Both the position numbers and the translations under genes were made by a program. Of a DNA stretch of 50,911 nt, positions 3,635-29,924 are shown piece after piece. Position 1 is the stretch's first letter; each line of letters begins with the position of its first letter. The DNA comes from Phoronis australis (lineage: Eukaryota; Animalia; Phoronida): contig NMRA01000239.1 of assembly GCA_002633005.1 (NCBI GenBank), positions 189,534 to 240,444 of the forward strand, written 5' to 3'. The notes beneath the pieces are model-generated. The model worked only from the letters and a program-made list of their open reading frames with translations. It was not told the DNA's origin and did not search any database.

Positions 3635-3886
<252 letters not shown>

Positions 3887-5793: not shown

Positions 5794-5899
5794 GTACTGT
5801 TGGGGCGTTATCTTTTATGTCTAATTGCTGCTGCTCGCAGATGTTGAGGAAAAACAATTTTGCCACTGATGATTCTGATAGATTAGTTGTGTATTAATT

Positions 5900-5994: not shown

Positions 5995-6000
5995 ATTCTG

Positions 6001-6663: not shown

Positions 6664-6814
6664 AGATTCTTGTATAAAAAAAAAACAGCAAGAAATTTAT
6701 ACATCAATGTTGGTTGCTTCTTTGGTCAATTTACATAATATTGAATTGCCTTTATTCATTTTACCGTGACTTTGCATAAAAGATAATTTATTCAACATCT
6801 TTTTTTCGCTCCAG

Positions 6815-7011
6815 GTGGTTTCAAGGAGCTCATCAAACCCTCACCCCATGTTGACCTTACCAATAGGGTGACAGGTGATGAGGTCAAGAGGGTGGAGCCA
6901 GAAGTCATCGACCTCACTAACTTGCATGTTGAAGACAAGGTCAAGGAACAAGAGGAGGACCTGAATAATACACTGGCCAACCTGACTCTAGAAGATGAAG
7001 AAACTCCAGAG
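6815..7011 (+). CDS. ERCC6L: ERCC6L exon, disordered region with SIM-like motifs (HVDLT, EVIDLT)
   Basis: ttttcgctccag acceptor, gtagcc donor; open frame, phase 1 to 0. Confidence 0.8.
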
Positions 7012-7215
7012 GTAGCCCTGGGGGTAGTAGCTAGGTAGACTAGTACCTGGGAACTAGAAGGCGGGAATCTATTACGATTGGTTGTAAAAATGAGGTTGAG
7101 TAACTTAGCATCAAAGGGTGGGCCTCCCAACAAAGGCAATGGTTGGGTCCCTTCATCGCTGTCGTCCAATTCTCTTAATTCTATGTTTATGTCTGCTCAG
7201 TAACTCCAAAATATT

Positions 7216-7420
7216 TATAAGCTCACACTATGTGTATACTGTGCTGGTGCTAGTTTGCAGTAAGTACTCAGGACTGATACACACCTTTTCCTACAGACAG
7301 TACAGTTGATGCCACTAGGTAGCAGCACCTGTATAAGCTCACAGTCTATGTATACTGTGCCGGTGCTAGTTTGCAGTAAATACTCAGCACTGATACATAC
7401 CTTATCCTACACACAGTACA
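7216..7420 (+). repeat. Two-copy direct duplication (about 88 bp shared, period about 116 bp)
   Basis: tataagctcaca..gtatactgtgc.ggtgctagtttgcagtaa.tactcag.actgatac..acagtaca occurs twice. Confidence 0.8.
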
Positions 7421-8198
7421 CTTATCTTCATGTTATACTCCTCATAGCGTACTTACAAAAATTCATCATACTACAGAGTATTACACAATAAGAATCAATT
7501 TGTGTTTTACGTAATATCCTCTACAGCCTTATTTTAAATGCAAAAGTAACGACACCTATTAGGCTAGTCTAATCACGTGACGTTTCAGGTAAGGAAGTTA
7601 TACAGTCAAGAACTTGTCTGACCGTATTTTCGACTTGCACTGAACTGATTGTGTACGGGAGGTCAGAACGAGGCTAGCTTGGGGAAGTGGAGATTTGAAG
7701 GTGTATTCTTTGCAGCGCAGAATTTAAGTAAACTATTGATTTGAGGGAGATACACTTCATTAGTTGACGCCAGAGTTGGAAACATTCAAGTTACATTTAG
7801 TAAGGCAACAATGTTGCAGAAAAATAAGTTATGAGTGCCTAAAATTTGGATTGTTTCTGAAACTAGAGTATTGTGTCTGTAACAGACCCAGATGGAAATT
7901 AATCTGTTTTGCTTAACAATAGTGTATATAGATAATTGAAGTGTTTGGCAGACCTATTTTAAATTATCTCCAGGAGATTACTTTGACAATTAAAATCTGT
8001 TGTATCGGTGAACTCTTTTATTTTGCTTCAGCTGGAAACCATTTTGATATTTAGTTCATTCTAAGAACGGAAAGCAAGGTAGCCCAGATGTTTAGTTGCA
8101 GTGAATATTGGTAAAAGGTTTTGATTCTACAGTTATTAGGGTGAAGTGTAACTATGTAACCTAACTCCCATGATAAAAGAATTGTCTTTCATCTGTAG

Positions 8199-9183
8199 TG
8201 TAAAGCTGAGGATCTTGGCTCACCACAGAATCCCATCATAATCAAGAGCGAGCCGTCGACGCCAGCCAAACAGTCTGCCATGCCAACCAAAACATCACCG
8301 CTACCAGTTGAACCCCCCACCACACCAAGCACAGTCATATCCACTGCTACACCATCCAAAACATCAATCACACCAGGCAAGCTTTCAACACCGGCCAGAC
8401 CCATTCGGACGATTGAAGAGGAACTGATTATCTCCCCTGATGCCAAATATCCCATCATCAATACTTCTCGTGTCCATGAACTCCAATCAAAGAGAATTGC
8501 CCACTCTCCATGTGTTAACCCCGACATCAAGAAACATAAAAGCATCCTTTATCTGAGTCCCGCGTCTCTTGGCAAGCCAATCCTGACCAGCGTCTCCGAA
8601 CTGCAGCAGGTGACAAAAGAATCGACCTCGTCAAACCTTGATGGAAGTATTAACCTGCCGTATCATGCATTTGTTGACAGTGTTCAGGAGCGGCCAAACT
8701 CAACCGTGTTACCTGGGCCCGGTGCGATCACGCCCGTATTTGTGTGCGAAACTCCAGATCTTCTGTCCGCGTCAAACTCGCCGTGCGTTGCTGAATCTCC
8801 ATCGAACGATCGTGTCTCTGGCATCGATGACAACCTTGACAACGGCAGTGATGACGTTGTTGTCTGTGAGTCGGACGTTGATGATGATGATGGTGGTGAT
8901 GAGGATGATGACACCCCAAAAGAAGACAGTATCAACAAAAGCATCACAATCCACGTTCCCAATAGTGATGGAGAAGACAATGAGTCGGATACCCAACCTG
9001 ATGACACGGACTTCAATACTGTGCTCGCTCAATCTGTTGGAGATAACGTAGGGAATGCTGACGCTCAGGGAAGCAGTCCAACAGCAAGTGAAGTGAATCA
9101 TGATAACGAGACAAGGGAAGTGTCTCCCTCTGTTGGTGACGACTCATTTCACAGTGCTATGGGAGAAGAGGAGCAGGCTAAAG
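8199..9183 (+). CDS. ERCC6L: ERCC6L large disordered exon (S/T/P-rich, then acidic)
   Basis: ctgtag acceptor, gtacgg donor; 985-nt open frame, same frame as ORF 8280..9278. Confidence 0.85.
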
Positions 9184-9577
9184 GTACGGGTACACATGTT
9201 GAGAGCATCAAAGCCTCTGTTTTAAGACTTCAGTACAACACTGAAGTAATAGGACTAAATACGGCTTTACTGTCATGATGGCTAATTCTGTTATCTAAAA
9301 AAATGTACGTACTGTCATGGATGAAAAATTGTAATTAGTCTGGCTTAGCCACCTCGCTGACTTTGCTGTTGATTTCCGCTTCCGCCCAGCCATCATGACA
9401 AAGAATTCTTCATCATTTTGCTGCGTACTTTACACCTGGATAACTGTTAATAGAGTTCCATTACAATGTTGACCTCAACTTGCAACAAATTATACAGTTG
9501 TGATAAGAAGGTGTTTTTTAAAAGCTAAACACGTTTTCCTATTAAAAAGTGACCGGCGTATTACTTTCCTGTTTCAG

Positions 9578-9730
9578 AAGTGATTGAGGCAGAGAGTGGC
9601 GCCAGTGAGGGGGAAGCAAAGAGTGATGACCTGAATATGTCGGGTGACGCGTCCGAGTATGATGATGATGATGATGATGATGACGAAGATCGAGATCTGA
9701 GTGACTTTGTTGTTCCAGACGATGATGAAG
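9578..9730 (+). CDS. ERCC6L: ERCC6L acidic exon (poly-D, DLSDFVVPDDDE)
   Basis: tttcag acceptor, gtatga donor; phase 1-1. Confidence 0.85.
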
Positions 9731-10230
9731 GTATGATCAAGCTTCTGAAAGTCGCTGTAACAATCCTTTATAAGAATTGAATCTTTCGTGATTCTGTGTT
9801 TGAACGGTCATGTCTGACAATTATTGTATAAATCCTTTGAAACCCTTATTGTGTTTATTTTGAGAGAGGTTAAAGCAAAACACTATTTTGATTTTTGCCT
9901 TGTTACCACTAACATGAACAATGGATCAATTTTGCCAAATTGATCCATTGTTCATGTTAATGGTTTATGTTCAAAGGTTTAAAATAGTCCCGCATTATGC
10001 AGTCTGAAGATGGTAGTTCCCACACGTGCTGGTTTCTGTTCGACCCATTTGCCAACCAACATTTGCATTGACCTACCTAACCCTCTTATGGTAGTTCTGG
10101 CCAAATATTTTGCTGTAAAAGCGATCTTGGTTTTTCATTGACTACAATCTTATGTCTTTTATTGTTTTTTTTTTCTCTTTTCATAAACCATACACATAAT
10201 GAGTGCATATTGCCATCATCTCGGCAATGA

Positions 10231-10329
10231 TCTGATATAATGTGCCCGTATTTTGAGAACCAGTTTGATGCCCATTGTTCAGTGGAGAAAAGTACTGTTT
10301 CTCAAAATTTGGGCACGTTATATCAGACC
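10231..10329. mobile_element. About 100-bp palindromic MITE; second copy at about 14519-14618
   Basis: tctgatataatgtgccc..ttttgagaaccag / gtttctcaaaatttgggcacgttatatcaga; an inverted relative lies at 14519-14618. Confidence 0.7.
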
Positions 10330-10339
10330 GTTAACATCA

Positions 10340-10980
10340 TCTCTGTCTGGGCATCCAGCGTCCGCTGCTGTATCTCCTAAAACTCAATGAGATTTGAAAG
10401 ATGTGTTCCCATGGAGCTGTTCGTTTTTATGCTTTCTTCTGTTTCATGGTAATTTTCTTCTTGGTGGATTTTCAGGAAATGCGGCAAATAGGTTTCTATT
10501 AAGGAGACAGCATCACCTTCCCACTTTTGGATACATTCAGCGTATTCTGCACCATCTAGTGGTCATTTTATTGTTTCGGTCTGCCTCTCTAGCTGTCAAA
10601 CTGCTTGAAGCATCGTTATGGAAATTGACAGATGTGTTCCTGCAGAACAGACATCAGAAGACGTTTATTTTTGGATGAGCACGACTAACTATTGTAGTTG
10701 CACCCTCTACTAGCAACTTCGTTTTTGTCTCTTTGGCAGTATCTCCTCAACCCCTTGCAGGATTTTTGTGAAATTTAGCAAGTGTATTCCCATATGAGCA
10801 TGGAAACAGATGACAATTAATTTCAGACAAATCCGACTACCACAGTGCATCCTATTGGCATTTACATTTTTCACGTTTGCCTCCGCATCTTTGGAGATCA
10901 TGAATGAATTTTCGTGAAATTTGGCAAATAGGTTTCTATTATTGATATGGCGAGGACCAAAAGGCAGTGTCTATGATAAT
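10340..10980 (-). mobile_element. Subrepeat-containing interspersed element (HINE/Pearl-like), related to 23170-24300
   Basis: Reverse complement shares the gctaaatttca..aatcc..aggg..gagata and aaaatgaccactag.tggtgcagaatac blocks with 23170-24300. Confidence 0.6.
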
Positions 10981-11101
10981 AAACACTCGTAGAAACATAC
11001 CATGTGCAGTGCAGTTGTGGACACATTTCCATGCTGTCTGCTGCTCTTGTTTCATAATTATCGCCATAAATTTCATACACATATCAATAAATTCCTGTTA
11101 G

Positions 11102-11243
11102 GTGAAGAAAGTGGGTCTGCAGAGTCAAGTAGTGAGGGGAGTCAAGTGGGTGATGAAGAAAGTGGGTCAGATGGAGAGAGTGAAGAGGACGAGTTGTCTG
11201 CTCAACAGAGGGAGCAGTTTGAACTACATAGGGAGACGGCTAG
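11102..11243 (+). CDS. ERCC6L: ERCC6L exon (acidic stretch into start of TPR helix)
   Basis: cctgttag acceptor, gtaagc donor; phase 1 to 2. Confidence 0.85.
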
Positions 11244-11883
11244 GTAAGCAGCACTCTGTAGCACACTATCTGTCTATGTGCAGCACTACTAATAAGGTAA
11301 TGCTCCACTTATTGCGCACAAAATTTGTCCAATTTCCCATTTTTCAAAGCCTGCCAGTGGTTAGGTTTCTGAAAATAATGGAAAATTTACCAAAAGTTGT
11401 TTTATGACATTTACAGAGTACAAACCTTGCAGGTAATAGACTAAAAAATTCTTGATTTTGACTTTTGTGGACAAATTTGACAAAATGGAATTCCACTTGT
11501 CGGCCATATTTTGTACTAAACAAGTGAAGAATTACCATACCATGTTTTGACAAGTAACCACATTGCTGCTGCCCTCGACCTTACTTTATAGCACAAATAA
11601 TAATTCGTCATGTTTGACTAAAAATGGTGCTCACAACCACTTTAATTAATTTATACTAAACCGTAAGTGTTCACAAGGCTTTGAGTTTTCCTCTTTTAAG
11701 GGAATTTTTTCATCATTATTTTGACTTTATTCATGCAAAAAAACGTTTCTTGCTGTTAAGTTTTACAACAGAAGAAATATTTGTACAACGCATGCCTATG
11801 TAGAATGATAAATCAACTAGAAAATTTTCCTCTTTTTTCGTTGGTCATTCCAAGCCTTGTTTACCTATGTTTTGTCCTTTCAG

Positions 11884-12010: not shown

Positions 12011-13276
12011 CTGGTCCAACACCTTGACATAACGTTTCAGTGAAGGATTTATTCGTTAGAGTAGTTAGCAAATCATGGTGCTGAAGGTATAAGTGACAGA
12101 GAGGTTAAGAGAATGACTGGGATTGGTGGACTTGAGGGTGGGAGAGGTCAGGGCACTTGAGATGAAACTGAAACTTGAAGAACTCTGTTGATTGGTTGAT
12201 CAACCTGGAGGTCAAATATGTTGTTGGCCAATCATGACGTTTGATTGCAACACAACAGAGATGAAACAGCAATTAACATTTGTTGGAATATGTTGGTGCT
12301 CAAAATATTTACAAAACTGTTTGAATGAGTTGATAGGTGAGCTAAGCCATCAATATTGTCACATTAATTGATCAGGATGATGGTCAGATTCTCTGACAAT
12401 AGTACAGCAATTTGGATCACATACAAGTGGTTTTGGTTGCCATTAAGTTGTCATGTTTTTTCATATCAGTTTATGTCAAACGTTTCAATGAATTTGTATA
12501 AATGGTATATGAGATCAGTGGTTGACAAGAGCTCATATTAGTAATAATATAATTTGTCATATGAATATGTCAATCTCAATATAATTTGTCATGCAAGGTT
12601 TACCATCAATCCTGAATATTTTTATTTCTTGTCACTAAGCAATGATAAAATAGGTTTTCCATGAATTCCGCTATAAATTATGATCAGACTATGGCTACTC
12701 CTCATAAGCCCAGTATGAATTCATTTCAACCAAAACAAGGATGTAGTAAATAATCTTCAAACACTGTACATACGCAACTGTTTTTGTGATGATAATTTGA
12801 CAACTTGAAAAGTTATCAATACTACAAGCATATGTGAGGTTTATTCAAGTCCCACTCAGTGCTAATTAAGTAAAGCCAAAATCGCAAACTTAAGTGGTGA
12901 ATCTCTCTACTGAAGCAATCAATTAACTCTATTTGGACCGAGGCTTTATCGCGTGCAAGTTAGGAAAACTAAATCACCATCGTAAAAAAGGGTTATAACA
13001 TAGTTTCCAAGGTGGTGCGGCAGGTGGCATAGGTATGTGAAATTGCGATGGCATGGAGTGAATGTTGAGCACGTCATGAGCAGCAGGGGAGCATATGAAA
13101 TGTCTGGTTCATTGTTTTCAATTTATAATGATTCTACAAAGCTAAATCATTTGTAGATGCAGAGTTTGGAATCAATCTATGTAGTTTCTCATCTCAATTT
13201 AGGTTTCCTAACAGTAGCACTGGTCAAATATTGCCACAGGTTTTCTCGTACTTACCATCAGTATTTGGAAGTGATG

Positions 13277-13282
13277 AATAAA
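13277..13282 (+). promoter_or_regulatory. Candidate polyadenylation signal of ERCC6L
   Basis: AATAAA about 1.27 kb after the stop codon. Confidence 0.35.
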
Positions 13283-13740
13283 CTTACTTGACACAAGGTA
13301 TAGCATGGCTGATTATGTGAGCTATTACGATTATTGTGTGAATATAAAATTACTATCATTGTACAAAAATGTGTGATTTTGATGTAAAACTACTCTCCAC
13401 AACAAGTTTGGAAATTGGCAATCAGTCAGTACACATAAACACTGAACATCAAACTAAGGTTCAAGCACTTTGTTCAAATGAACAAAATTATCTATAAGAC
13501 ATCCGTTACAACTCCTGCATAATATAATATTTACTTCTCTCTACTATTCAGCAGTATTCACCACTTCGTGCGACTTGCTCAAAAAAATTTAGTAAATTTG
13601 CTAATTTTGTTTGTGTACAATATTGACAGCTTGATTACGAAGTTATTTAGAACTTGGGACTGTTGGTGAAATTGCTAGTGGACAACAATACATTCATTCA
13701 AAAGCTCAGACAAGTTTATTTGACTATTTACAATATCAGA

Positions 13741-14010
13741 GGTCAGTTTTATGAAAATTGTCTCGACTCCTGACAGAAATTTGGTCTTACAGTCCAGACC
13801 CACTTCACAATTGTTAAAAAGTTTAGCCAAGTAATTAAGAGTGCATCAGTCAAGGAATAATTTTAATATAGAAATCGTCTCAATAATTAGTTATGCGTAT
13901 ATCCTCAGAGACTAAAAATGAAATGTAATTACTTTTCTGAAATAGTTGTGTGAAGCACACGGCCAAATTTCTGACTTAAGTCTTGAGTCAATTTTCATAG
14001 AACAGAACCC
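13741..14010. mobile_element. About 270-bp MITE of the same TIR family as 6001-6663
   Basis: ggtcagttttatgaaaattg..gaaatttggtcttac / ggccaaatttctgacttaagtcttgagtcaattttcatagaacagaacc; matches 32740-33018. Confidence 0.7.
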
Positions 14011-14894
14011 AGGAGTTAACATGTATGACAACGAATAAAAATGTGTACAAATGGACGGACGCATCCACGTCAATATTCGTACAAAAATAAATAAAAACAT
14101 ATCAAGACCAACATAGCTCTTCGCGATAAATAACATCCCACTTATATCAGTTTAAAAAATTAAAAGCCACCAACTTGGACAAAAAACTGCAAATGTACAA
14201 TACAGGTCTTTATTGTGCATCCTACCTTCCACTTGTAACATCACAACAGTGTTAGACAGTGTGACATTCTTGTGTATTGGCCGTGAACTAGTAATTCAAC
14301 ACTTCACGGCCACTAGATAGCCTACTATTCCAAGGTTATATTGCAGAGGGTGGGTAGGTGCACTTTTAAAGTGGCAAAACAGGTTCATTTGGCTTGGTTC
14401 TAAGTTGCAGACAATTTGAATTTCTGTGAAGGAAGGCTTAGAAAATGTAAAGCATATGTTGAAAAACAATTCATCTTTTGTTTTTCTGTAACTATCGTAC
14501 TCCACCTTCAAACAGTAATAGTCGCATATAATGTGCCTGGGTTTTGAGAACCAGTTTTCTCCATTGAATAATAGGCATCAAACTGGTTCACAAAATGTTG
14601 GCACGTCATATATGACTATTGTCCTTATGAACTACATCAGCAGAGTTTCCACTAAAACTCTTTAGCTCAGATGCCGCCCAGTTGTGCTGCCTTTTGACGA
14701 CTAACAAATCTGGAATGTCCTTTCGTTTACACAGATCTAACCTAGAAACTGGTTCCTAGATCTAACAAAACATTTTACTAGGCAGTCCGAATACTAAAAA
14801 ATACACAAAGGTGAGAATATAATCAAGGATTTGTAGTTACTTTCAGTTGCTCAATGTCCTCAGATCTTTGACTGTATTTAATACAGTTCAGTGT

Positions 14895-15005
14895 TTACAT
14901 ATCCTCAGGAGGCAGCGTCTCAGTCAACTTCAATTCACAACACAGACAGTTGACAGTGTCACATTCGTTGGGAGGACAAGCACAGTTACAGTTACAGGCC
15001 CCACA
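14895..15005 (-). CDS. Cys-rich TM protein, last exon B (CGACNCNCACPPNECDTVNCLCCELKLTETLPPEDM*)
   Basis: tttttatttcag acceptor, phase 0; clear paralogue of the Cys block in exon A; ends in TAA; absent from the ORF track. Confidence 0.85.
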   Translation of the reverse strand, partial: CGACNCNCACPPNECDTVNCLCCELKLTETLPPEDM

Positions 15006-16560
15006 CTGAAATAAAAATACAGACATTTTTCCTCAAGTCTTGCCAAGTTAATAATTTCATACTGGTCCTTGTTAACTCCTAGGAGGCTCAAATTAGGAAC
15101 TCAAAAATCAGGTTGAGGTTGGCATTTACCCAAATGGTTAGGAAGAAGTAATTTTGATGAGTTCTAGTCTCGTATAGCTATGTATCAAGTTCGAGGTCAT
15201 TAAATTTTATGGAAAAACTTATTTTGCAAATTTAAGAATGCAGTATAATTTTGTTAACTAAATGTTACTAAACAGGATGTCACTATTACAACAAATTTTG
15301 AATGAGTGCAAACATGCCATCAAGTGCCGGCCAATATGCCCTCAGTACAAGTTAATATGAGGAGACGACTTACACGAACTTTTGCAAGTAATTAATAGAC
15401 TGATCTGCCTCTGCAGACAACACCACATTACGATTGGTTAACCATTGAAACTATTTTTTCACTAATTGCTAAAACGTTTTTCTACCAGTTAAAAAAGTGC
15501 AACCTTACAGTTAGTAGACATATCTACAACATTCTCCAAAAATATCCCATAATATACGCAAGTACGCCAACCAGAGTAAACTTAAAGCTATGCACAAGCC
15601 CTTCATGCAATGCTAACAGAGGCATGCAATGCACTGGCAGACGCCTACATTAAACAACTCATGGTGAACAAAGAACACAAAATATGGAGCCACTGTGGGA
15701 CAGAGCAAATCAACATTTTAACATTTAAAGAAACAAATAATCAATGACTTTGACTAGGCAGATATCATGCTTACTGGTAAAGACAAGTACAAATGTTTAA
15801 ATTTACCAATAAATTGCAGTCAGTGGCAGATTACAGACCAACCCTACATTCACATAAAAATCACGTAACGATCAAGAGATGCAATGATTCAATAAAAGAG
15901 AGGGGTGAAAGTTTGTCAGGAGTATGGACCAGAGTTGTAGCCAAATTCATCTCTGTTATCCCTGGATTTGTTTTATTTCAACGCTGACTAAAAAATAATT
16001 CTGACAATAATTTGGTAACTGGCGATGTTTTAAAAGTAAAAAGCAACATTTGCACTAAATATATAAAGGTTACAGTAAATATTTTCATCACCTATTACCT
16101 CTGTTATTGCTGCCAAAATGAGAAATCCAACATTTTGTAGGAATGGAGACACAGTCGTAATCAAACATCCTCATACAGGGTAATGCACCCACAATATACG
16201 TAGTAAAAATTTGAGATTACAAAAACTTTGAGGCTCTTACTTTCATTGTGTCCCACTTTGGCAAAGAAAGTTGTTAAAAATTTAGTTAACTAAAATGTTG
16301 AAAAGAATAAATTGAGCATGCACATCTATCAAAATGGGACAAGAATAATGAAATTAAGTTAAAAAAAGAAAAAGGTTACTGTCCGTCATCATCATTACTG
16401 ATGAGTGAATTTAAGGTGACCGTCTACCTTTGTTATCAAATATCAACTTCTCAACCATTAATAGTAAACCCATAAAACCATTTATACCACATCAGCCTCG
16501 AATGGCCAATACAATCGTGTAATAACTCATTTAGTTATCTCACTAGTGAAATAACATTTT

Positions 16561-16640
16561 GGCTGTAACCGAGGCCGGTTTCGAACCCGGGCCACAAGAG
16601 TTTCGGGTCGTCGACTTTACCACTCCACCACTAAGCGGCT
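16561..16640 (-). mobile_element. tRNA-like SINE head
   Basis: Minus strand tagtggtggagtggtaaag (A box) and ccgggttcgaaaccgg (B box, T stem-loop). Confidence 0.6.
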
Positions 16641-17183
16641 GACATCGTCGAACGTGAAAATAGAATACTTAAATGAGCACGCGCAAACAATCGCATGTTC
16701 AACACAGAGCATTGTACCGACATTTATACGCTATGAAAAATAAGACGCATAATTTCCATAAAAACGATATTTTAATTCAGTGAATTTTTTCTCTCGTGTT
16801 CTCTCACTTGTAAATCACCGATCTCCAATTTAAAGGCGGGTATCGTGTTGTCGGGATCCTTTGAATTGAGCATTATACTCAGTTACCAGTGGTAACCTTT
16901 AGCAGACGATATTTTCATGGTCGAAGCTTAGTGTGATAAAATGTGTAGTAAGCTATAATAGTTGCTAAACCTTAATTTATAGATTCACTTTATTTCTATT
17001 TTGTTTAAATTCTCATTTGGTTTTGAGTAAAAGCATTATTTAACAAAAATAGCTAGGCTTTTCTTAAAAGGTCACAACCTCCGACCCCAGGCCTCTGACA
17101 TAGAAAGTAGTTACAAAGCCAAGGCGAGTCGAGAAAGGTACATCGATTCATTGCAATGTTTCTCGTTCAGTATGTGGTATAAA

Positions 17184-17347
17184 TAGATTATTACATGTTC
17201 TCAGTTGTTATCCCCCTTATCTAGAGCCCTCGAGGATTTTGGAGCATTATCACTCTCGGGGCTAACACCCCACGGGTGATAATTCTCCAAAATCCACTCG
17301 GATTCTAGAATATGGGAGATATCAACATCGCCATGTAATAATCTGTC
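17184..17347. mobile_element. About 165-bp hairpin MITE
   Basis: tagattattacatg / catgtaataatctg termini, with internal inverted ggattttggag..ttatcac / gtgataa..ctccaaaatcc. Confidence 0.7.
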
Positions 17348-18307
17348 TATATTTTTAAAATCCTTGAGAATCAGAAAATCTCATTTTGTGCATGAAAACA
17401 ATGTTCACTGATTCATTATCAGTTGACTGCTTTTTTGTAAAAAAAATCACAATTTTTCACGGAGTTAGCCGTATTTTCCACAATTTATTTTTTATTCAAA
17501 ACTTTCAAATTCTGTTTCTTTGTTCTATTAGGTACAAAACAGAGTCTGGGATTTTCTTTTCAGGCCTTTGAGCCCGAGAAATTCCATGTCAAAAATCAAG
17601 ATTTCCGTTTTTTCAAAAAATATTGATGCATTAATTTTGACAGGAGATTTCTCGGGCAAACAGGCCTTCAAAGGGAATTCCAGACGCCGTTTTGTACCTA
17701 CTAGAAAAAAAGAAACAGAATTTTTAGGTTTTGAAAAATAGGGTCATCTCCATGAAAAATGCAATGTTAAAAGTCATGTGATCATGAACATCTGAACATT
17801 GTTTTCATGCACATAATAAGATTCTGTGATACCCAATGATTTTAAAAATACAAACATAGTTTTATACGTCTACTATTAATAGTTCAAAAATTTTTTAAAA
17901 AATCAAATCTTTGGTAATGTAGGTAGACAGTGATCTTAATCATACCATTGTGAAATAAGTTAAACTTCTCCTGAAAGTTACAAATAGAAGACAGACAAAT
18001 TATGGACAGCTACCTAGAATATGAAATAATATTAACAGAATGAAATTAATAAGAACAAGATGAAATATGAAGCCAAGTACAGAACAGATGGTGTTATTTA
18101 AAAATGTTTTCAAGCAGAAGTGTCAAAGGTTAACGTCAGCACAGTGAACTGAAAAAGAAGTCCGTGTTAAACTCAAGCCAAGGTGCCAAAGTGCAAATTC
18201 ATGCAGAGTCCTGTGAAAGGCTAAGTAGACCTACAGAGGAAATGAGACAACGGATACACAATCTGCAGTAAGTTGGTAGTAACAGAGTCACTCAACCTGA
18301 AATAACA

Positions 18308-18733
18308 TCAAGAGGGAGGTGCTCCTCTAGCCAGGAAAGCACTGTTGATGTTGCCCTGTCTCTCTGGTAGGGGGCGCCCACCAGCGCTGGGATAGCCACG
18401 ACCACCCCCACCCCCTGCGTTGCCAGAATACCCCCTCTGCTGAGGAGGGTAATCATGGCCGCCCCCTGCTCTGGCACTGCCAGGGTACCCTCTCTGCTGG
18501 GGAGGGTAATTGTAGCCCCCTCTACCCTCGCCCTCAGGGTACCCTCTCTGCGGGGGAGGGTAATTGTAGCCCCCTCTACCCTCACCCTCAGGGTACCCCC
18601 TCTGCTGAGAGGGGTAATTGTTATAGCGGGGGGTGGCAGGATTCATTGGCTGTTTGATCTGAATCTCGCAACAACAGCAGTTGATCGTGTCGCACTCCGG
18701 TGCCTGGCAGTTACAGTTGCAGCCTTCACAACA
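18308..18733 (-). CDS. Cys-rich TM protein, last exon A (CCEGCNCNCQAPECDTINCCCCEIQIK plus G/Y/P/Q/R repeat tail)
   Basis: cccatttcag acceptor, phase 0; 141 codons then TGA; same frame as ORF 18308..18799. Confidence 0.85.
   Translation of the reverse strand, partial: CCEGCNCNCQAPECDTINCCCCEIQIKQPMNPATPRYNNYPSQQRGYPEGEGRGGYNYPPPQRGYPEGEGRGGYNYPPQQRGYPGSARAGGGHDYPPQQRGYSGNAGGGGGRGYPSAGGRPLPERQGNINSAFLARGAPPS
18405..18625 (-). repeat. Coding 54-bp (18-aa) tandem repeat, about 4 units (YNYPPQQRGYPEGEGRGG)
   Basis: Repeats visible in both DNA and protein within last exon A. Confidence 0.9.
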
Positions 18734-19038
18734 CTGAAATGGGAGGAGATGTAGTGAAATCCTGGTCACATGACAGGGTTGAACGTGATGACCAACCATG
18801 TAGGAAATCGTTTAGAAGAGTTAATTTAATATCAATTCGTCAAACTATTGTAATGAACAAGAAGTTGCACCTGATGGAATATTGCCATTGTTTGAAACTA
18901 AAAATGTTGATTTGTTTGATTGTGTGTTTAAAAGCACACAATACAAGCAGTGGTTGAGTACTACTTGTTGTATGGGAGAAGAAAACAAATTCAAAAATGG
19001 CTAAAAAATATTTGCTACAATCTCGGGGTGTAACTTAC

Positions 19039-19119
19039 ATCACATCCATTCTCTCCACAGCAACTCTTGCAACACTCAGCACAACACTGGCACGCTACAA
19101 TGTCTCCGCAGTCATAGTG
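19039..19119 (-). CDS. Cys-rich TM protein exon (HYDCGDIVACQCCAECCKSCCGENGCD)
   Basis: ttccatttcag acceptor, gtaagt donor; 81 nt, phase 0-0; 9 Cys. Confidence 0.88.
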
Positions 19120-21138
19120 CTGAAATGGAACAAAAAAGTCTTAAAACTATTACGCATACAGACCAATGGATCAATTGCCGAGAAACAACCAGTTTAACCT
19201 TTTAGTCGTTACCGCTGATACACACATCATATATATACCAAATGTCAAAATTTGCCATATCCATTAGTTTCTGTCAATCATTCATTCATATTACCTAAAG
19301 AAAGTTGAACAGCTCACTTAGTATATTTGAGCAGTTGGAGACTTAAGTTAAGCAGCTGCGTTTCAACAGAACACAGGTAATATCTGTGGCAAAAGGTCAA
19401 TTTTAGAAAAAAAACTCCTCAAACATATGTACACACTTCGCAGTTAACTTAATCTGGAGCTAATACTGCCCCTTTGCCAATACTCTACACATGAATGCTG
19501 TAGAGCCTTGCAGTTATAACATTGTCGTGCTACTGTGACCATGGCAAACAGTTAAATCTGCACGAACTTGACATTTATACACACAAGTGAATATCATGCG
19601 CATGAGCATATATTCATGGGAAGATTGGGAATCGACCTAAGGAAATTAAAGGTTCCAAAATTTAGTGCGCAGACGACTTATTCTGAGTCTGTAATAAGTT
19701 TACAGCTATTCCCATCCAGTGTACATGCCATAAAACCTGCTCAATAAGCATGGACAAATGTTTAGACATTCAAATGGGTAAATGAAATTCAGTTAGACCA
19801 CTGCTGAACTATCATTTCCTTGTCTGATCTAAACAGTCAGGCTAACAGAGCTTCCTTTAACACAAATAGAAACAAGTAGAAACCATTCTTATTTGATTAG
19901 GTCAGTGACAGAGGTGAAGAAAACTATGCTACGCAACTGGGAGCGGAGAGTAGAGCAGGCAGGGTATGAGTAAAAAACATTTAAACACGATGGTCGAAAA
20001 AGTAGGTGTCCATGAAATTTCGTCAATGTATAATGAATGAACAACGTTTAAGTTGCAAGCAAAAAGGTGAAAATCTAACCTACCTAAATGTAAATATCAA
20101 AGATTGTTAGCAATGAAAGCATGTCTTTGAGTGTTGAAACATTATGAGCAGTTACAAGACTGCATTACTAAACAATGTGTTACAGGTAATACGTTCGCTC
20201 TTAAATTCAATGAATGCATTGAAAAATTCAGTGAATACATTGAAAAAGTCAGTGACTACATTAACAAAATTCAGTGGATTTGTTGCTCATACAAAAATTC
20301 AGCAAATACATTGCTCTTGCACAAAGTAGGTGTTTGCAACTTCAGCGCTTGAATCAACAGTCAGTTGAAAAAATTAAACAACATCATCAGACATACAATG
20401 ACTTCACTGAAAACACGACACAGCTTTGTTGCTTCCAAAACTCAGTGATACCTATCTTTAGTGATTGAAATTTCCTTTGACAATCACCTCGAAACAAAAC
20501 CATGCAACAACAAATTTACGTGTTTTCAATGAAATGAGTTAAAAGAGCTTAAGTGTGTCAGTACAATGGTTGAAAAGTGAAAAATAGTCACCAAATCTTG
20601 TCATTTAGTGCAGCCCATTTGAAATGTTTAACAGCAGACAGTTACATTCATTATGAAGCATACAATAATGCAATAGCTAAACAATAAAAAATAACTCCGT
20701 TCCACTTACAATCGTGCAAAAGCCACTTCGTCATCAAAAAATAAAAATTTCCATCATCAGCATGCAATGCATTACCATGTCAGAAAATGAACCAATGAAC
20801 TATGAAACGCTTCCGTTTCAAAAAAGAAATCAGAAATCTGAGAACCTTATCAAAACCAAAAAATGCATGTAAGGTACGTAGAAAATTCTGCTAACTTTTC
20901 ATTAGTTGCAGGGTTTACTTCCTAGCTTTATTACACTCATTGACTGCAAACATTTGTGAAGCTTCTCAGAGTGCATTGTTTTCACAAATTTGTCATAACT
21001 GTAATACATATTGAGAAGTATCAAACGACAACAAGATGTGTCGTAGTCCCCGCCCCCCACAACAATAGTGTACAACACTCCCATGACCAGGTAGTTATAG
21101 TCAAGCAAGGTGCAGGAGTCACTTAGTGTATACTGTAC

Positions 21139-21156
21139 CTGACAGCAGCCTCCCTT
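21139..21156 (-). CDS. Candidate 18-nt microexon (KGGCCQ) of the Cys-rich TM protein
   Basis: tttttccatccaacag acceptor, CAG|gtacag donor; frame-preserving and contains a CC pair. Confidence 0.5.
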
Positions 21157-22568
21157 CTGTTGGATGGAAAAATTACACAGACAAAACATGAATGAAACAG
21201 AGTGCAACAGTACAGGGAAATGGCTAATGACCAATGCTGTGGACATAAAGGGAAACATAAGACCTGGGGTGTTTGTCTAACATCAGGGGGGACAATTACA
21301 GATGATGGTTCTACCACGAGATGTATATTTTAACAGAGCAGCACAATTTTCGTTGAAGGTAACTCAGGCTTGTATAAAAGAAAACAAGTACGGTCGTTCT
21401 TAGAATATTATTTTTACCCTCACCAAATCCTCACTTCTCTGAGGTAGGCAGGACTGTTGCCAAAATGCCTCAGTTGTCCAGGTATTTTTCATTTTTACAC
21501 TCAAAATAGAATTCTTCAGTTAGGATGCAAATAAAATCTTTTGAGCTACGTATGGCAAGATGCACGAGGAAAACAAACTTTCAACTTAAAACTTCATTTA
21601 GCCCTCAGTGCTCAACACGGGCGAGAGTCTGCGCACGAAAACAGGAGTGACTCGCATTCCTGGATTTGTTTTAGTAAAAAGTTATGATAAAAAACCAAGA
21701 AAGAAAAACGCCAGATACCCGCACTCGTACAAGTGATACAAGTGAGGCCAATATTCCGCTCATATTTTACTTTTTCCACTCGCACTTTCGAACGTTTACT
21801 CGCTTATGTCGAGCCTTAGACCTATTAACCAATAACCAATTAACGCATTAACTCTGAATGGTTCATAAAATAATAAAATATAAAATCCATGAAATGCAAT
21901 GGCAATTTTACAATCCTAAATTCAACTTTTCTCAAAAAGATACCAACCAATATTTTTTCAACCTTTTTACTTTTGATGCATGAACTACTAAAAAGCTTAC
22001 AATTCCTGTTGACTACAAACACATTCGTGATTACTGGTGATTGAAATAACAAATGTTTTGTGGTGTCAAGAGAAACAGCTATATAACTCAGATAGTAGAT
22101 TTGTCATCAAAAATCTGGTCCAGTCTTATTCTTATTGGAATAAGAAAAGATTTCTCAGCATCAGGGGGTGAGCTAACGCTTTGTTAGTGCTTGAAACCAC
22201 GGTCAACGCACATATTGACCTGCTACGATAAGTCAACACTGAGCATGGCTTCAAACAAAAATGAATTGCCAGCTCATCCCAAGTCTCAAAACACACTTTA
22301 ATCTTAGTAAGGAAGAAATTGAGAACAGTTTTGTAACAGTGACTGTTCTGCTCAAGGGTATTTTTAACAAAGGCAGAATTGTAGCCATTTTAATACTCAA
22401 AAATAAACATCTTGATTCATTAAGTTCAAGACTGAAGATGTAAATAATAATTTGAAAAATATCATACACACATGTATGGATGTGAGTTTGGGTTTCTCCA
22501 TAATGAAAAAAAAAACAAGAGAGTGTACAAAACTAAAAATTTCACTGAAAAATCACACTTCAACATAC

Positions 22569-22718
22569 CCTTCTCTGTGGGCAGATAGAGTCCAAGCAGA
22601 CGGTAATGTTGGGCGACTGACAACAGTTGCATGACTCACAGCACGATATCCAACACTCACAGCAGTAGACCTCACCTTCCTGTCCACAGCAGGCTGCAGA
22701 GTGCCACATGTTACGTTT
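22569..22718 (-). CDS. Cys-rich TM protein exon (KRNMWHSAACCGQEGEVYCCECWISCCESCNCCQSPNITVCLDSICPQRR)
   Basis: tttgtag acceptor, gtatgt donor; 150 nt, phase 0-0; 12 Cys in 50 aa. Confidence 0.88.
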
Positions 22719-22880
22719 CTACAAACAACAAAACACTAGTAACAATGCTAGTACCAGTAATGGAAATAAACATAACAACAATGAAAATAGCACTTCATAC
22801 TTCACACTCAAGAGATTCGAGAAATGTCGGTCAAAGGCAAACGATTAAAAAACATTGTACAGGCATAGAAAGTGCTTGAT

Positions 22881-22995
22881 GCAGTGTGGCCTAGTGGGAT
22901 AAGTGTCCACTTCCTTTACTGAACGTCGTGTGTTCAAGTACCACTGGAACACACTGCTAGACCCTAGAGTGAGGTCTCTAGCTCCTCAGTTCGGT
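22881..22995 (+). mobile_element. Degenerate tRNA-derived SINE
   Basis: A box tggcctagtgg, B box gtgttcaagtacc, followed by a core-like gaccctagagtgagg..cctcagtt segment. Confidence 0.55.
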
Positions 22996-23169
22996 TTTAT
23001 CTATATCTGTATAATATTAATGGAGCATAACAGGAGCAACGCAGAACATTGAAATGCCCCTATGACTGCATCACAAATGGTGGAGTGTTTATTAGTATCA
23101 CAAAAATAGCCATTAGACACATCAAGGAACTCTGAAATTACAGACGCAAACATAAAACTATAATTGCCA

Positions 23170-24300
23170 CTACAGGGCACAGCTGTAGGTGGACTTATTT
23201 GAAACTTGTTGTCATATGTTGCCATCTCCATTGAAACACATCTGCTAAATTTCAAAGAGATCTTGCAAAGGGTGAACTTGATACAGTCGTGGATACAAAA
23301 ATGCAACTAAGGGGCACCAGAGTACACAAACACATCCATAAATCAACATTAGCCTCCATCTTCTCATCAAAAACACATCTCCCTATTTTAATTATGATCC
23401 TTCAAGCGGTTTGGTGGATGGAGAGGATGATGTCAAAACGTACTAAAAATGTTCAAAATGGCCACCGGGTGGCGCAGAATACACCAAATTTGTCCTCAAA
23501 TAAGAAGGCATTGTCCTCACTTTACTAAAACAAAATTTCACGATAATAAAAATGGACACTATACGTTGAATTTATCCAAAAACGAGAACCAATTTGTTAA
23601 ATTTCATAAAAATCCATCAAGGTGTTTCAAAGACACAGAAGACAATGGAAAAAGCTAAATTGCCACTAAGGGGGTTACAGCAGTAGTTGGATCCGTCCAA
23701 ATGTCGTCGCCATTCGTTGTCAACTTCATACAAATAAATTTGCCAAATTTAATAGAGATACTGCAGAGGGTTTAGAAGATACAGCCATAGATGCAAAAAA
23801 CGGCCAATACCAGGTGCCACTGACAATAGTTGGAGTCATCCAAACATCATCACCAGCCGTCCTCTTCACACTATAAACATACACGCCAATTTTCACAATC
23901 ATCCTCAGTGTGGTTTGGTTGATAGATGGGTGGATGACAAAAAACAACCCGAAAACACAAAAAATGACCACTAGGTGGTGCAAAATACCCGCAAATCCAT
24001 TCAAAAACAAGAAGGTAGCGTCATCTCACTAATAGATAGTAATTTGCTAAATTTTATGAAAATCCGTTAAGGACCTCTGAAGATAGAGTTAAACATAAAA
24101 AGCTAAAATTGCCATTAGGGACCAATCCATCCAAAAATTCGCTAACGGTGTACCATCCATGTGAGGATTAAAACACATCTGTAAAATTTCATGAACATGG
24201 AGATGGAGCAGCAGATGACAGACGCCGCACGGACGGACGGATGGACAGGTATGACGGCATAATTTATGTATAAAAATGATTCCAGGTGATCAGAGCAATG
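23170..24300 (+). mobile_element. About 1.1-kb element of diverged subrepeats ending in a (GACG)n microsatellite; HINE/Pearl-like
   Basis: Recurring aaattt(c/t)at.aaaatcc..caagg and aaaagctaaattgcca blocks; cggacggacggatggacag at about 24229-24248. Confidence 0.65.
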
Positions 24301-24901
24301 GGTCCATTTGAACGGGCTGCGAACGTCTGCTACAAAGTGTTGCAGGCCGTCTGCCATTATTACATTAGATCATATGCTCAACATGCTTTTTGTCAGCTTC
24401 ACCTTCTTCAAACTTCTCCAACAGAGGGAGAGACAACCACTTGAGCATTACAATCACTCGTCAGTCATGTGACCCGGCAGAGTTATAGTTATTTAAACCC
24501 ACATTAAGTGATGTTTGAGCCAATGCTCATGTTAGCTGAGCCCTCCAGACCATGGCTGCACCATCAACTTATCTAGGCTACACAAGTAGTCATACATAGG
24601 TGCAGACAGTAATCCCTTGTGAACATACATGCCTTTTCAACAGCACTTTCTGTGTCTTTTGTCCACTCTTTGTACTTTGATACATTAATATTCAAATGAA
24701 TACATGTCAATATCTAGCTCTGTGCGGCAGATAAGTCAAGCATGCAACTTATTCTAGATACAAGCACAGCTGCACACACAGGTACATGAGCCTAAATATG
24801 CACATGGGCCTGAATTTGCTCATAACACGGACCTAGATATGCACAAAAACACGCACCTAAATTATTCACATCACAGCAATTCTTACAAATAGCCAACTCA
24901 C

Positions 24902-25021
24902 CATCAAGCACTCCCTGATCATGAGAAGAATGACAATCAGCACAATGTAAGCGCCAATGCAGATGCACACAATGGCTGCTGTTGGCAGGCCTGGCGATGC
25001 GGGTGCTGCCGTCGTGAACAC
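24902..25021 (-). CDS. Cys-rich TM protein, transmembrane exon (VFTTAAPASPGLPTAAIVCICIGAYIVLIVILLMIRECLM)
   Basis: ttccacag acceptor, gtgagt donor; 120 nt, phase 0-0; hydrophobic helix followed by a basic residue. Confidence 0.85.
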
Positions 25022-25570
25022 CTGTGGAAACAAGTCTTAATGAACTGCACTAGCTTAACAGATCAAAAGAAACTTAACAGCAGATAATTAACATAATTTC
25101 AGTGAGGTGTCAAACTGAAACAACTGTCGCAATTGCTTTTGATCACTTAACGGTATTTGAATTCTTGAGCTGTTCACTCGAACAGATAAGGAAGGCAATA
25201 AATGACCTACAGTGGGAGGGAGTTCAAGGTGAGAGGGCACACTGACTACCCAGGCACACTAGTAGTGTGACTATTACGTTGGGACACAGGAAATTTTGTT
25301 TCAGTGGCAAGTCTTGATTTCTTTTAGTTTTGTGTTTGACAGAAAAATATAATCCAAATCTTAAAATAAGTAACCACTTCTAATAGATTAACTCAATTAT
25401 ACTATTAATATGTCCGAGATGGTACTCATCAGATATTACTTTTGATGAATCACACTTAATTTTAGTTTTAAAATTGGTGGTTCAGCAACTCTCCGAAACA
25501 AATGAGTTGTCTCAATATTATATTAATAACATGACTGTCTTACAATGTAAAATGATTAAATATACTTCAC

Positions 25571-25573
25571 CAT
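25571..25573 (-). CDS. Candidate start codon of the Cys-rich TM gene, at the end of a mostly untranslated exon (25571-25696)
   Basis: Minus strand: tttgtag acceptor, exon ends ACCATG|gtgaag; splicing gives ACCATGG (Kozak-like) in frame with VFTTAAP. The donor is weak. Confidence 0.5.
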
Positions 25574-26499
25574 GGTCAATAAATGTGGACAGATGCTTCA
25601 AACTACCAAATCAACGTCAGGATCCATAACTGCTGGACTATAAGTACAGTGTGTTCGCTATCACCACATAAGGTGAGCATATACTGTGTCACGAGCCTAC
25701 AAACAGAACAAACTGCAGGTAAAGATTAACGGTATCAACATTTCAAAAACAAATCTCATCCAAACAGTAGGTAATTAACAAATGTTCAGGTCACGGTCGC
25801 TAAAGAAAATATTAGAGAAGAACCTGTGTTGTTGAAACAAGTCAGGGCTTGGAATGACTTATGATGAAAAAAAGAGGAAAATTTTCCAGGTGACTTGTGC
25901 AATTGAAATATCTTTTGTGCAGTAAAATGTAACTGAAATAAACATTTTTGCATAAATTAAGTCAAAGTAATGATAAAAAATAGATGAAAAAAGAGGAAAC
26001 TGGAAATCAAATAAGAGGAAATTGAAACCAAAAATGAGGAAATCCTCTTAAATGAGGAAAATACGAAGTCCTAAACAAATGTACCAGTGCATGTACATCT
26101 ACTTCTGTTTTTATTTGACCACTGAGCATTCCCAATGAACTGCAGCAGTGCAGCACACACATAGTTATTTTCCTTTGATGCAAGGTTAGAGTGAGCACAT
26201 TTATTTTTGGCCAAAATATGAGTACAAACTTCAAAATCAGCGCATCTGTGAACAAAGACATTGTATTGATCGACATGAGCACACGTACTGGAGCAAACTC
26301 CATATTGGGCTTGTCTTTCGGTGACTGAGCTGTAGAATAGCCACTCTTGCGAAAGCCTTACTAGTGCAACCTGTGTCCACATCATTTTGGTGTTCTTTCA
26401 GTCTGTATCCTGTCTAAGATATGCTATGGCAACCTGTCTTCTTCCTGGACCATTTTTGTGCCAAGCATCCATCCTGCACTGTGGTATGAGCCTATGTGC

Positions 26500-28145: not shown

Positions 28146-29924
28146 TGTTGAAACCCTGATATCCAATATTTGCTGCTGGATGGCTGGATGAATTCCATAC
28201 CAGAAAGTGCCATAAAAGACCTGTCAATTCCCATTTACCAACTTCGAGGTCAAACACTTGACAGAGTCACAGTTGCGTTGGCTCGGACAATCTAAGTACT
28301 ACGTCACATGTACACGTCAGATTTATCTTAAAACACATCCAGACAACATCACAGCAAAATTAAATACAAAGAAACTTGCAATTTTGTATGTGACTAACTC
28401 ACATGTCAATATAAATGCCTACAATTCTCCTGTAAGGCTGTAGTTGTAACTGTATCAGGCCTGTTTTTCAAGTGTTTTTGAATATTGTGCTTTACAATCC
28501 GACTCTAAAACCCGACTCTCTAAACGTACATACTTGGTGATGCTATTTTCTGAATCCTCTCCTTATGCCAAGTTTAAAACTGTGTTAATCATACCTATTA
28601 GCCCTTCTTATTCATACATTTAGTGTATTTTCCAAGGCGTTCACTTGTTAGTAAGCAGAAATAAACTGGCAGCCATTTTAAAAGTGCGACACCACTCAGC
28701 AGGAATGATAACTACAACGATTGCGCCGGAGTCGAACCGTTGTGTGCCGAACGGTGGTCGAACCGTTGAGTAGTCACTGCGTGCTAGTACATAGCGGGTG
28801 TACGAGGGAAACTTTCAGTTGAAGGTGGTAATAATCACTTAACGGAGTGTCTCTTCAAAACTTGTCCATCAGAAAAGAAGAGAGAATGCGTGACCTGTGC
28901 ATTCCATTATAAGCTAGTTTGCGGACCCCGAATTAGTCACTGAGCTGGGCCGCTTACATTGTGAACTCCCTCGGCTGTCTGCTCTCGCCGAGTGTTGTAG
29001 TTACCAAATTAAGGCTAATTTAATTGCTTCATTCTCATTCATTTTTTTTTTTCACTTTTGTTCATGAAGCGAGATTCATAGATGAGTTACGGTTCCACAC
29101 ACTCCTCGGGAAAATGTCTCGTCATTAGTCAATAAAACGACGTTTGAGTTTTTAAATTAATTGTTAAAACATTTTCTGTATACGCACCTACCTGTGACCC
29201 AGGGCTGGATGTCTGAAATTAGGGTCGTAGGAAGCAAAGATACACCTAAATACGAATGCCCCATCTCTCATGTTCCCCCATGCATGACGGTTACCTCTCA
29301 AAAATAGCATGCCTCACTGTCAACTGCATGATTGCTTATAAGACATTCCGTTTTGATAAACAAATTCGTTGGTTTGATTAACATATGTTTATGTATCTAG
29401 GAGATAGATAGATCCATAGATTATTTTTGCAATTAAAACCGTTTTAATCTAATCTTGTAAGAATTCGCGATGTTTCAGTGAATTTAGTTGCAGCCTGAAG
29501 TTGGAAAAATCTATATTATTAATCCTATACCCCGTAGTAAACTTTACATTTAGACGTCGGACGATTTTGCCTATCTAAAATAAATGTCAAAGACATTGAC
29601 GAAATTCGGACAGTTCCCAAAAATATGGTCACAATTCAAATGACAATAAATGCATTGCTTTTTGAATTAGTCACAAGATTTGTCATTTAAACTCACAAAC
29701 AGCAGGTCAAAAAGGAATCAAAAGCCAATAAATCAACGAAAACACATTGCTCATAGAATGATAGTTGGCTTCTGAGTTTACATGTTTATGTATCTACGTA
29801 AATCGACTGATTGGTAGATGACTTTTGAAAATTAGAAGCTAAAAGTGTAAGAAATGGCGATGCTTCACTGAACTTAGTTGCAAGCTGACATTGGGAAATT
29901 TCGATCCATCGGTCAGACCCTTAA

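What the first reader, a model, noticed from the sequence alone, without database searches (positions are those of the whole stretch)
14895..18733. Duplicated, mutually exclusive last exons switch a low-complexity tail on or off
Seen: two phase-0 acceptor exons 3.7 kb apart encode homologous Cys blocks: A = CCEGCNCNCQAP-ECDTINCCCCEIQIK and B = CGACNCNCACPPNECDTVNCLCCELKLT. Each carries its own stop, so a protein can use only one. A continues for about 115 aa of G/Y/P/Q/R-rich sequence, while B ends after TETLPPEDM. Both keep their Cys spacing and acceptor despite clear DNA divergence. Inference: an old exon duplication kept under selection, giving an alternative-last-exon switch between a compact and a tailed isoform.
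Basis: partly seen in the sequence, partly recalled or inferred. Interest (0 to 1): 0.8.

Follow-up and report, generated by a model that had tools for sequence, protein, structure and literature searches.

The report
Duplicated stop-exon switch, KRAS4A-style
In an animal gene for a small predicted membrane protein of unknown function, RNA reads show a duplicated exon with its own stop codon being included in one sample and mostly skipped in two others, which would swap a short cysteine-rich end for a copy carrying a 114-residue low-complexity tail; this is a new case of a known splicing design (as in KRAS 4A/4B).

Summary
The two homologous exons are real and both are used, but A is not a last exon. 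RNA reads (runs X2/X3/X4) join exon 3 to A (6/6/40), exon 3 to B (53/54/5) and also A to B (4/8/27), from a donor 11 nt behind A's stop. A (18733-18297) is therefore a stop-bearing cassette; B is always the terminal exon and would be 3' UTR when A is in. This is the KRAS 4A/4B layout, not alternative polyadenylation. The gene belongs to the uncharacterised family of vertebrate LOC112694756 / si:ch211-198p11.6 (one predicted membrane helix, Cys-rich rest). Two alternative Cys ends also occur in gene models of two ribbon worms, an annelid and a tunicate, and the microexon in Lineus and Haliotis. Whether these share one duplication is unresolved. Tissue is unknown and X4 differs in genotype, so tissue control is inferred. 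Function of the tail is untested. Verdict: real, regulated, old; a new member of a known kind.

The parts
28595..28666 (-). first exon, 5' UTR; many molecules end at 28666-28667 (likely start region)
   Evidence: joint 25695-28594 in 55/44/52 reads and pile-up of ends
25571..25696 (-). second exon, 5' UTR, ending in the likely start codon (accATG at 25573-25571, then GT)
   Evidence: joint 25018-25568 (cut +3) in 30/33/23 reads; context
24902..25021 (-). coding exon with the predicted single transmembrane helix (residues about 16-36)
   Evidence: joint 22718-24902 in 46/53/27 reads; hydropathy 3.15; helix with pLDDT above 90 in a homolog's model
22569..22718 (-). Cys-rich coding exon, 50 codons, phase 0
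   Evidence: query that found the family
21139..21156 (-). 18-nt in-frame microexon (KGGCCQ), alternatively included; 65-nt AG-free zone upstream
   Evidence: inclusion 4/9/40 reads, skipping 78/61/0; borders; AG-free run
19039..19119 (-). constitutive Cys-rich exon 3 (27 codons); its donor goes to A or to B
18297..18733 (-). exon A: 437-nt cassette; Cys block, 114-aa G/P/R/Y/Q tail, TGA at 18310-18308, donor 11 nt later
   Evidence: joints 18733-19039 (6/6/40) and 15005-18297 (4/8/27)
18429..18621 (-). 54-bp tandem repeat x3.5 coding Y-P-P/S-x-Q-R-G-Y units in the tail
18289..18299 (-). donor of exon A, CAG|GTTGAGTG: off consensus in the standard register, predicted to pair with U1 with one bulged base
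   Evidence: duplex energy -9.2 kcal/mol, range -5.4 to -9.4 for the gene's other six donors
14895..15005 (-). exon B coding part: second Cys block plus 12 residues; translated only when A is skipped (inferred from frame)
   Evidence: joint 15005-19039 (53/54/5)
13707..14894 (-). shared 3' UTR of exon B; AATAAA at 13720
   Evidence: depth 40-55 in 13702-14302 falling to under 1 in 13101-13701 on this strand, contig ending at 13707; signal

Best explanation
Exon A is a duplicated, stop-bearing cassette exon that is spliced between exon 3 and the terminal exon B in some samples and skipped in others, so the gene is predicted to make either a 154-residue protein ending in B's Cys block or a 259- to 265-residue protein ending in A's Cys block plus a low-complexity tail, likely under tissue- or stage-specific control. 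Shown: all junctions, the stop 11 nt before A's donor, one shared 3' end, and the joint shift of A and the microexon in run X4. Inferred: (1) the A-form escapes nonsense-mediated decay because its stop lies far inside the 50-55 nt rule (rule recalled) and its 3' UTR is only 122 nt longer (1317 against 1195 nt); (2) a trans-acting splicing programme turns on A and the microexon together; (3) the protein is a single-pass membrane protein with the Cys-rich part in the cytoplasm, binding metal or carrying acyl chains, and both ends supply the same last Cys module; (4) the Tyr/Arg/Gly/Pro/Gln tail is a disordered binding or clustering segment that the switch adds without touching the core. Steps 3 and 4 are the weakest.
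For: Joints (X2/X3/X4): 3>A 6/6/40, 3>B 53/54/5, A>B 4/8/27, all with GT..AG ends; A>B from 21 different starts in X4. Depth on the gene's strand falls from 12.4 to 1.07 behind A's donor in X4 while B stays at 60.6 with only 5 direct 3>B reads. Inclusion of A 10/10/89%, microexon 5/13/100%; Fisher p 6e-22 and 3e-30 for X4 against X2+X3. Same design elsewhere: Lineus longissimus isoforms X1-X4 combine two Cys ends with a 6-aa insert at the same place; Tubulanus X1/X2 have a long and a short end; the Capitella model holds both blocks in the order tailed, then short; Haliotis rubra X1/X2 differ by a 7-aa insert ending in CCQ. KRAS 4A/4B is described with this layout (PMC5945503, passage).
Against: Three raw-read runs of one study, about 18-19% of each read, tissues unknown. 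X4 differs in genotype from X2 and X3 (19629, 19819, 20631), so tissue and genotype are confounded. The A>B joint has 9 letters that fit either side. No protein evidence; decay not tested. Reads were not phased across microexon and A, and Lineus models show all four combinations, so coupling is not obligatory. Other species' isoforms are predicted models whose DNA I could not see; 7 of 10 clusters looked up showed no pair of alternative Cys ends. A blocks do not group with A blocks convincingly. The fold outside the helix is low-confidence (mean pLDDT 59.8, pTM 0.33), with no Pfam or PDB match.
Confidence: 0.75

Rival explanations
1. The difference between runs is genetic: X4 carries cis variants that favour A and the microexon, and there is no tissue or stage programme.
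For: X4 has other alleles than X2/X3 in the intron above exon 3: 19629 7 of 7 against 0 of 11 and 0 of 5; 19819 0 of 4 against 7 of 7 and 9 of 9; 20631 9 of 10 against 0 of 8 and 0 of 8. Only three runs.
Against: X4 expresses two 3' UTR alleles (15 of 40, 19 of 41, 22 of 53) yet skips the microexon in 0 of 40 reads, so both haplotypes behave alike. Two exons 2.4 kb apart shift together, and both events recur in other phyla.
Confidence: 0.12
2. A is a poison exon: its stop sends the message to nonsense-mediated decay and the switch controls amount, not protein form.
For: The stop lies upstream of an exon junction; read depth over A's 3' part (12.4) is lower than over its 5' part (36.7) in X4.
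Against: The stop is 11 nt from the last junction; the A-form makes up 89% of transcripts in X4, whose upstream junction counts (27, 23, 52) are of the same order as in X2/X3 (46/53, 30/33, 55/44). A keeps a 141-codon frame with conserved Cys and saturated silent sites, and homologs have tailed ends. The depth dip covers a repeat and a bin that is partly intron.
Confidence: 0.06
3. One reading: A and B are alternative last exons chosen by polyadenylation; the A>B joint is a reverse-transcriptase template switch at the shared 9 letters.
For: 9-letter identity at both sides of the joint; the donor is off consensus. AATAAA occurs at 17496 and 17489. Homologous C-terminal swaps are described as usually arising by alternative poly(A) (PMC8373072, passages).
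Against: The joint has GT..AG ends at B's normal acceptor; its count follows A inclusion in all three runs (39 against 52, p = 0.21); the intron behind A has depth near 1; B is covered at 60 in X4 with 5 direct reads; the donor pairs with U1 at -9.2 kcal/mol in a bulged register. The AATAAA sites lie at the edge of a repeat-rich stretch.
Confidence: 0.05

Closest known systems
KRAS exons 4A/4B (PMC5945503 passage; PMC9882654 section 13)
   Same: Two homologous 3' coding exons; the upstream one has a stop near its end and, when included, is spliced to the downstream one, which is then untranslated; old and conserved.
   Different: KRAS swaps two short membrane-targeting ends of a GTPase. Here the swap repeats a Cys block and adds a 114-aa low-complexity tail to an uncharacterised membrane protein, together with a microexon. 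No homology to RAS.
Tandem exon duplication-derived substitutions, C-terminal class (77 of 236 human cases; PMC8373072 passages)
   Same: Tandem homologous exons giving alternative C-termini, with deep conservation.
   Different: That paper ascribes the C-terminal class to alternative poly(A); this case uses cassette splicing and one 3' end.
LOC112694756 homolog / si:ch211-198p11.6 family (names)
   Same: Short N-terminus, one hydrophobic helix, Cys-rich remainder ending in the same C-x-x-I/V-N-C-x-C block; found from octocorals to reptiles.
   Different: Vertebrate, hemichordate and sea-star proteins retrieved end 4-6 residues after the block; octocoral-type proteins have a G/Y/P/Q tail; this gene has both ends. 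The human gene is listed next to ALDOA at 16p11.2; that it is the ORF in the ALDOA 5' UTR is my inference.
eMIC (SRRM4-type) neural microexons (PMC8797185 passages)
   Same: 18-nt in-frame exon, switch-like inclusion, long AG-free zone.
   Different: No UGC close to the acceptor (nearest at -50); tissue unknown; exon A is far too long for this class.

Membership tests
Alternative last exons (alternative polyadenylation) | upstream exon ends in its own poly(A) site and is not spliced to the downstream exon | tested here: not met
   A>B joint 4/8/27 reads; depth near 1 behind A's donor
KRAS 4A/4B-type stop-bearing duplicated cassette | upstream exon homologous to the terminal exon | tested here: met
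   score 110 against shuffles 45 +/- 7
KRAS 4A/4B-type stop-bearing duplicated cassette | upstream exon holds the stop and is spliced onto the terminal exon; skipping joins the previous exon to the terminal exon in frame | tested here: met
KRAS 4A/4B-type stop-bearing duplicated cassette | inclusion form is stable and translated | tested here: inconclusive
   89% of transcripts in X4, stop 11 nt from the junction; no decay block or proteomics available
KRAS 4A/4B-type stop-bearing duplicated cassette | the two ends change where or with what the protein acts | not testable with these tools
   needs expression of the two forms
Tandem exon duplication-derived substitution | old duplication with both copies under selection | tested here: met
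   15 of 23 residues kept, 7 of 14 two-fold codons silently changed, introns unrelated
Tandem exon duplication-derived substitution | one duplication shared by the species that have two ends | tested here: inconclusive
   A-with-A plus B-with-B beats the crossed pairing in 6 of 6 species pairs but loses to within-species similarity in 3 of 6 (all with this window); AU p = 0.32 for an A clade; window A+B together at 63/76
LOC112694756 / si:ch211-198p11.6 family | sequence homology over helix, Cys-rich middle and terminal block | tested here: met
   exon query finds 9 full-family hits of 12; their profile finds 44 proteins including the named vertebrate ones; window exons align throughout
eMIC neural microexon | very short exon with long AG exclusion zone | tested here: met
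   18 nt; 65-nt AG-free run against 12-26 nt for the other five acceptors
eMIC neural microexon | UGC close to the 3' splice site | tested here: not met
   nearest UGC at -50
eMIC neural microexon | neuron-specific, eMIC-dependent inclusion | not testable with these tools
   runs carry no tissue label
Keratin-associated proteins / metallothioneins (automatic names on some homologs) | match to the family profile, no membrane helix | tested here: not met
   no such Pfam hit for 5 window exons or 9 homologs; strong hydrophobic helix
ALG-2 type 1 ligands / WW-domain ligands | PPYP(x)nYP or PPxY motif in the tail | tested here: not met
   no PPxY; no PPYP in the translation; motif wording from the abstract start of PMC4346919

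The most novel reading that the evidence does not exclude
One splicing switch older than the split of ribbon worms, annelids, molluscs and this lineage toggles an uncharacterised membrane protein between the two forms that other phyla have fixed: the tailed form seen in octocorals and the compact form seen in vertebrates. A cell-type programme (possibly neural) adds both the Cys-Cys microexon and a Tyr/Arg-Gly tail that clusters the protein, which would give the first functional handle on the family of the human 16p11.2 gene LOC112694756.
Probability: 0.2. Interest if true: 0.62.

Novelty: new member of a known kind. Interest (0 to 1): 0.42.

Why it matters
It is a read-verified, switch-like, apparently very old two-part splicing event in a pan-animal protein family for which my searches found no functional paper. 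Isoform ends kept for so long mark the parts of the protein that matter (terminal Cys block, tail, Cys-Cys insert) and suggest a direct comparison of two natural forms. It also adds an invertebrate case showing that homologous C-terminal swaps need not come from alternative polyadenylation. The splicing design itself is known, so a specialist would find it neat rather than surprising.

Tried and rejected
No whole genome is held, so paralogs and a separate gene for B elsewhere were not searched; B's link to this gene is shown by reads instead. No RNA holder was listed by index; the raw-read runs came by species label. A single-exon word search found nothing; the Atlas gave no usable hit for that exon and, for the coelacanth homolog, only the family's own clusters, with structure hits all under TM 0.5. 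Pfam: nothing for window exons, one sub-threshold ECSCR hit for 1 of 9 homologs. PDB by sequence: 0. The AlphaFold model of homolog P0016 was confident only for the helix, so no fold search was run. The metagenome scan gave one 1.4-kb locus with a single exon, no use for exon order. Three of 12 hits (P0004, P0008, P0012; long, many short matches) were dropped unread as likely Cys-repeat matches. The block tree had a wrong Capitella B slice and was redone. The family tree put the window nearest Lingula without firm support (90/35), so the phylum is not settled. An internal donor in A at 18585 was considered; no such joint is among the 15 of 18 shown. Splicing-factor motifs are leads only: YCAY 8 per 200 nt above the microexon (6 of 81 windows reach 8) and one TGCATG 92 nt below A's donor among 9 in the gene. 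Three look-ups of earlier findings returned nothing.

Full report
Observation. The window is animal DNA; the finding lies on the - strand. Exon A begins at 18733 and exon B at 15005, each behind a pyrimidine-rich AG, in phase 0 after the 81-nt exon 19119-19039. A codes a 27-residue Cys block and a 114-residue tail rich in G, P, R, Y, Q and N, built partly of a 54-bp repeat; B codes a Cys block and 12 further residues. The blocks score 110 against 45 +/- 7 for 2000 shuffles. Of 23 ungapped codons 15 keep the residue, and 7 of 14 two-fold codons among them differ silently; the neighbouring introns are unrelated. So the duplication is real, old and constrained at the protein level.

Gene structure from RNA. 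Four public runs were laid on 12500-30500 (15 of 79 joints shown) and the three raw-read runs on 14750-22800 (15 of 18 joints shown); about 18-19% of each run was read, all three from one study, tissues not given. They define two 5' UTR exons, a start codon at the end of the second, a helix exon, a Cys-rich exon, exon 3, and a terminal exon B whose UTR ends near 13710. Counts for X2/X3/X4: exon 3 to A 6/6/40; exon 3 to B 53/54/5; and A (18297) to B 4/8/27. A's donor lies 11 nt behind its stop. Reads leaving A (39) match reads entering it (52; p = 0.21), depth falls to about 1 behind the donor, and B is covered at 60.6 in X4 with only 5 direct reads. A is therefore a 437-nt cassette and B the only last exon. 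The joint has 9 letters that fit both sides, and the donor (CAG|GTTGAG) is off consensus, so a template-switch artefact was weighed; the GT..AG ends, the proportional counts, the empty intron and a U1 pairing of -9.2 kcal/mol with one bulged base (bulge registers described in PMC4856993, passages) argue against it.

A second switch. Reads between exon 2 and exon 3 carry extra letters that match 21156-21139, an in-frame 18-nt exon (KGGCCQ): included 4/9/40, skipped 78/61/0. Inclusion is 5/13/100% against 10/10/89% for A (Fisher p 3e-30 and 6e-22, X4 against X2+X3). The predicted main products are 154 aa (X2, X3) and 265 aa (X4). X4 is of another genotype than X2/X3, so tissue, stage, sex and genotype cannot be separated; both X4 alleles are expressed and neither skips the microexon, which speaks against a simple heterozygous variant. 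The microexon has a 65-nt AG-free zone but no close UGC, so it fits the eMIC neural code (PMC8797185, passages) only in part.

Family. The Cys-rich exon found 12 representatives, 9 of them single-helix Cys-rich proteins from Lingula, a chiton, two annelids, a hemichordate and unnamed sources; 3 long repeat proteins were dropped. Profiles reached 44 and 24 proteins, from an octocoral to reptiles, named LOC112694756 homolog, si:ch211-198p11.6, 'keratin-associated-like' or uncharacterised. No Pfam family, no PDB relative, and only the helix folds with confidence. The window's nearest row is Lingula without firm support. Literature: 9 papers name LOC112694756 (search listing only; in the one I opened it is an item in a 16p11.2 gene list), none names ch211-198p11.6; a conserved CDS in the ALDOA 5' UTR is mentioned in PMC6886504 (passage), and equating the two is my inference. 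Searches showed no description of this splicing event; subscription journals and supplements were not searched.

Conservation of the switch. Of 10 clusters opened, 3 hold isoforms of one gene with alternative Cys ends: Lineus longissimus (four forms: two ends times a 6-aa insert at the microexon's place), Tubulanus polymorphus (47- and 11-residue ends) and the tunicate Clavelina (two ends, neither tailed); Haliotis rubra has the insert alone, ending in CCQ as here. The Capitella model carries both blocks, tailed first. The other 7 clusters show no such pair, which may reflect annotation. Octocoral-type proteins have a G/Y/P/Q tail after the block; vertebrate and hemichordate ones stop 4 residues after it. 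These are predicted models and I could not see their DNA. Whether one duplication underlies all cases is open: like-with-like beats crossed pairing in 6 of 6 species pairs, but the window's A and B are closer to each other than that in its 3 pairs; an A clade is not rejected (AU p = 0.32) and not shown (8 rows, 32 columns).

How it likely works. Default splicing skips A and the microexon and gives the compact protein. A trans-acting programme in some cells includes both; translation then stops in A, B becomes UTR, and the message would escape decay because the stop is 11 nt from the last junction (50-55 nt rule, recalled) and the UTR grows by only 122 nt. Both forms keep the terminal Cys module, so the core is preserved while a disordered Tyr/Arg-Gly/Pro segment (5 YP[P/S], 8 RG; no PPxY) is added, most plausibly for binding or clustering on the cytoplasmic side. 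That last step, and metal binding versus acylation of the cysteines, rest on general knowledge and are untested.

Comparison and verdict. The layout is that of KRAS 4A/4B, where exon 4B is present in both mRNAs and untranslated when 4A is in (PMC5945503, passage; age and CDC42 parallel in PMC9882654, section 13), and belongs to the tandem-duplication substitutions catalogued in PMC8373072 (passages). NMD-resistant alternative C-termini from non-triplet cassettes are a recognised class (PMC13247117, passages). The case is real, read-verified and probably ancient, in a family nobody seems to have studied; the design is known. New member of a known kind; interest 0.42.

Noticed in passing
window 14841-15005 (-): In run X3, 4 reads from 4 starts jump back from 14841 to B's acceptor at 15005; 14840 begins GTAACT. 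Possible 165-nt back-splice (circular RNA) within exon B, with a weak donor (-3.2 kcal/mol).
   Followed up: partly
window 28595-28666 and 25571-25696 (-): The 5' UTR holds five upstream ATGs with short frames of 2 to 25 codons, and the main ATG is the last codon of its exon.
   Followed up: no
window about 1900-11400 (+): Exons of an SNF2-type helicase gene (Helicase_C, E 6e-9) with long acidic and S/T/P-rich parts; resembles ERCC6L/PICH (name recalled, not tested). It converges on the 3' end of the gene studied.
   Followed up: partly
window about 34500-40300 (-): Exons of another gene with an Ephrin_rec_like Cys repeat (36135-36377, E 3e-5) and a hydrophobic stretch near 34650-34800.
   Followed up: partly
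window 14542-14596, 16400-17400, 23200-24300, 25800-26050: Interspersed repeats: reads on both strands with many loose ends; one short element sits inside the shared 3' UTR.
   Followed up: no
proteins P0025/P0056, P0026/P0058, P0030/P0032/P0065: Sea stars and a crinoid have other alternative Cys-rich exons in the same gene (a 14-15-residue cassette before the terminal block; skipped or truncated forms), so the Cys count of this family seems to be tuned by splicing in several phyla.
   Followed up: no
protein P0033: A Bugula neritina member of this family is named ALDOA in the databases though it shows no aldolase sequence; likely a name carried over from the human read-through locus (inference).
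   Followed up: no
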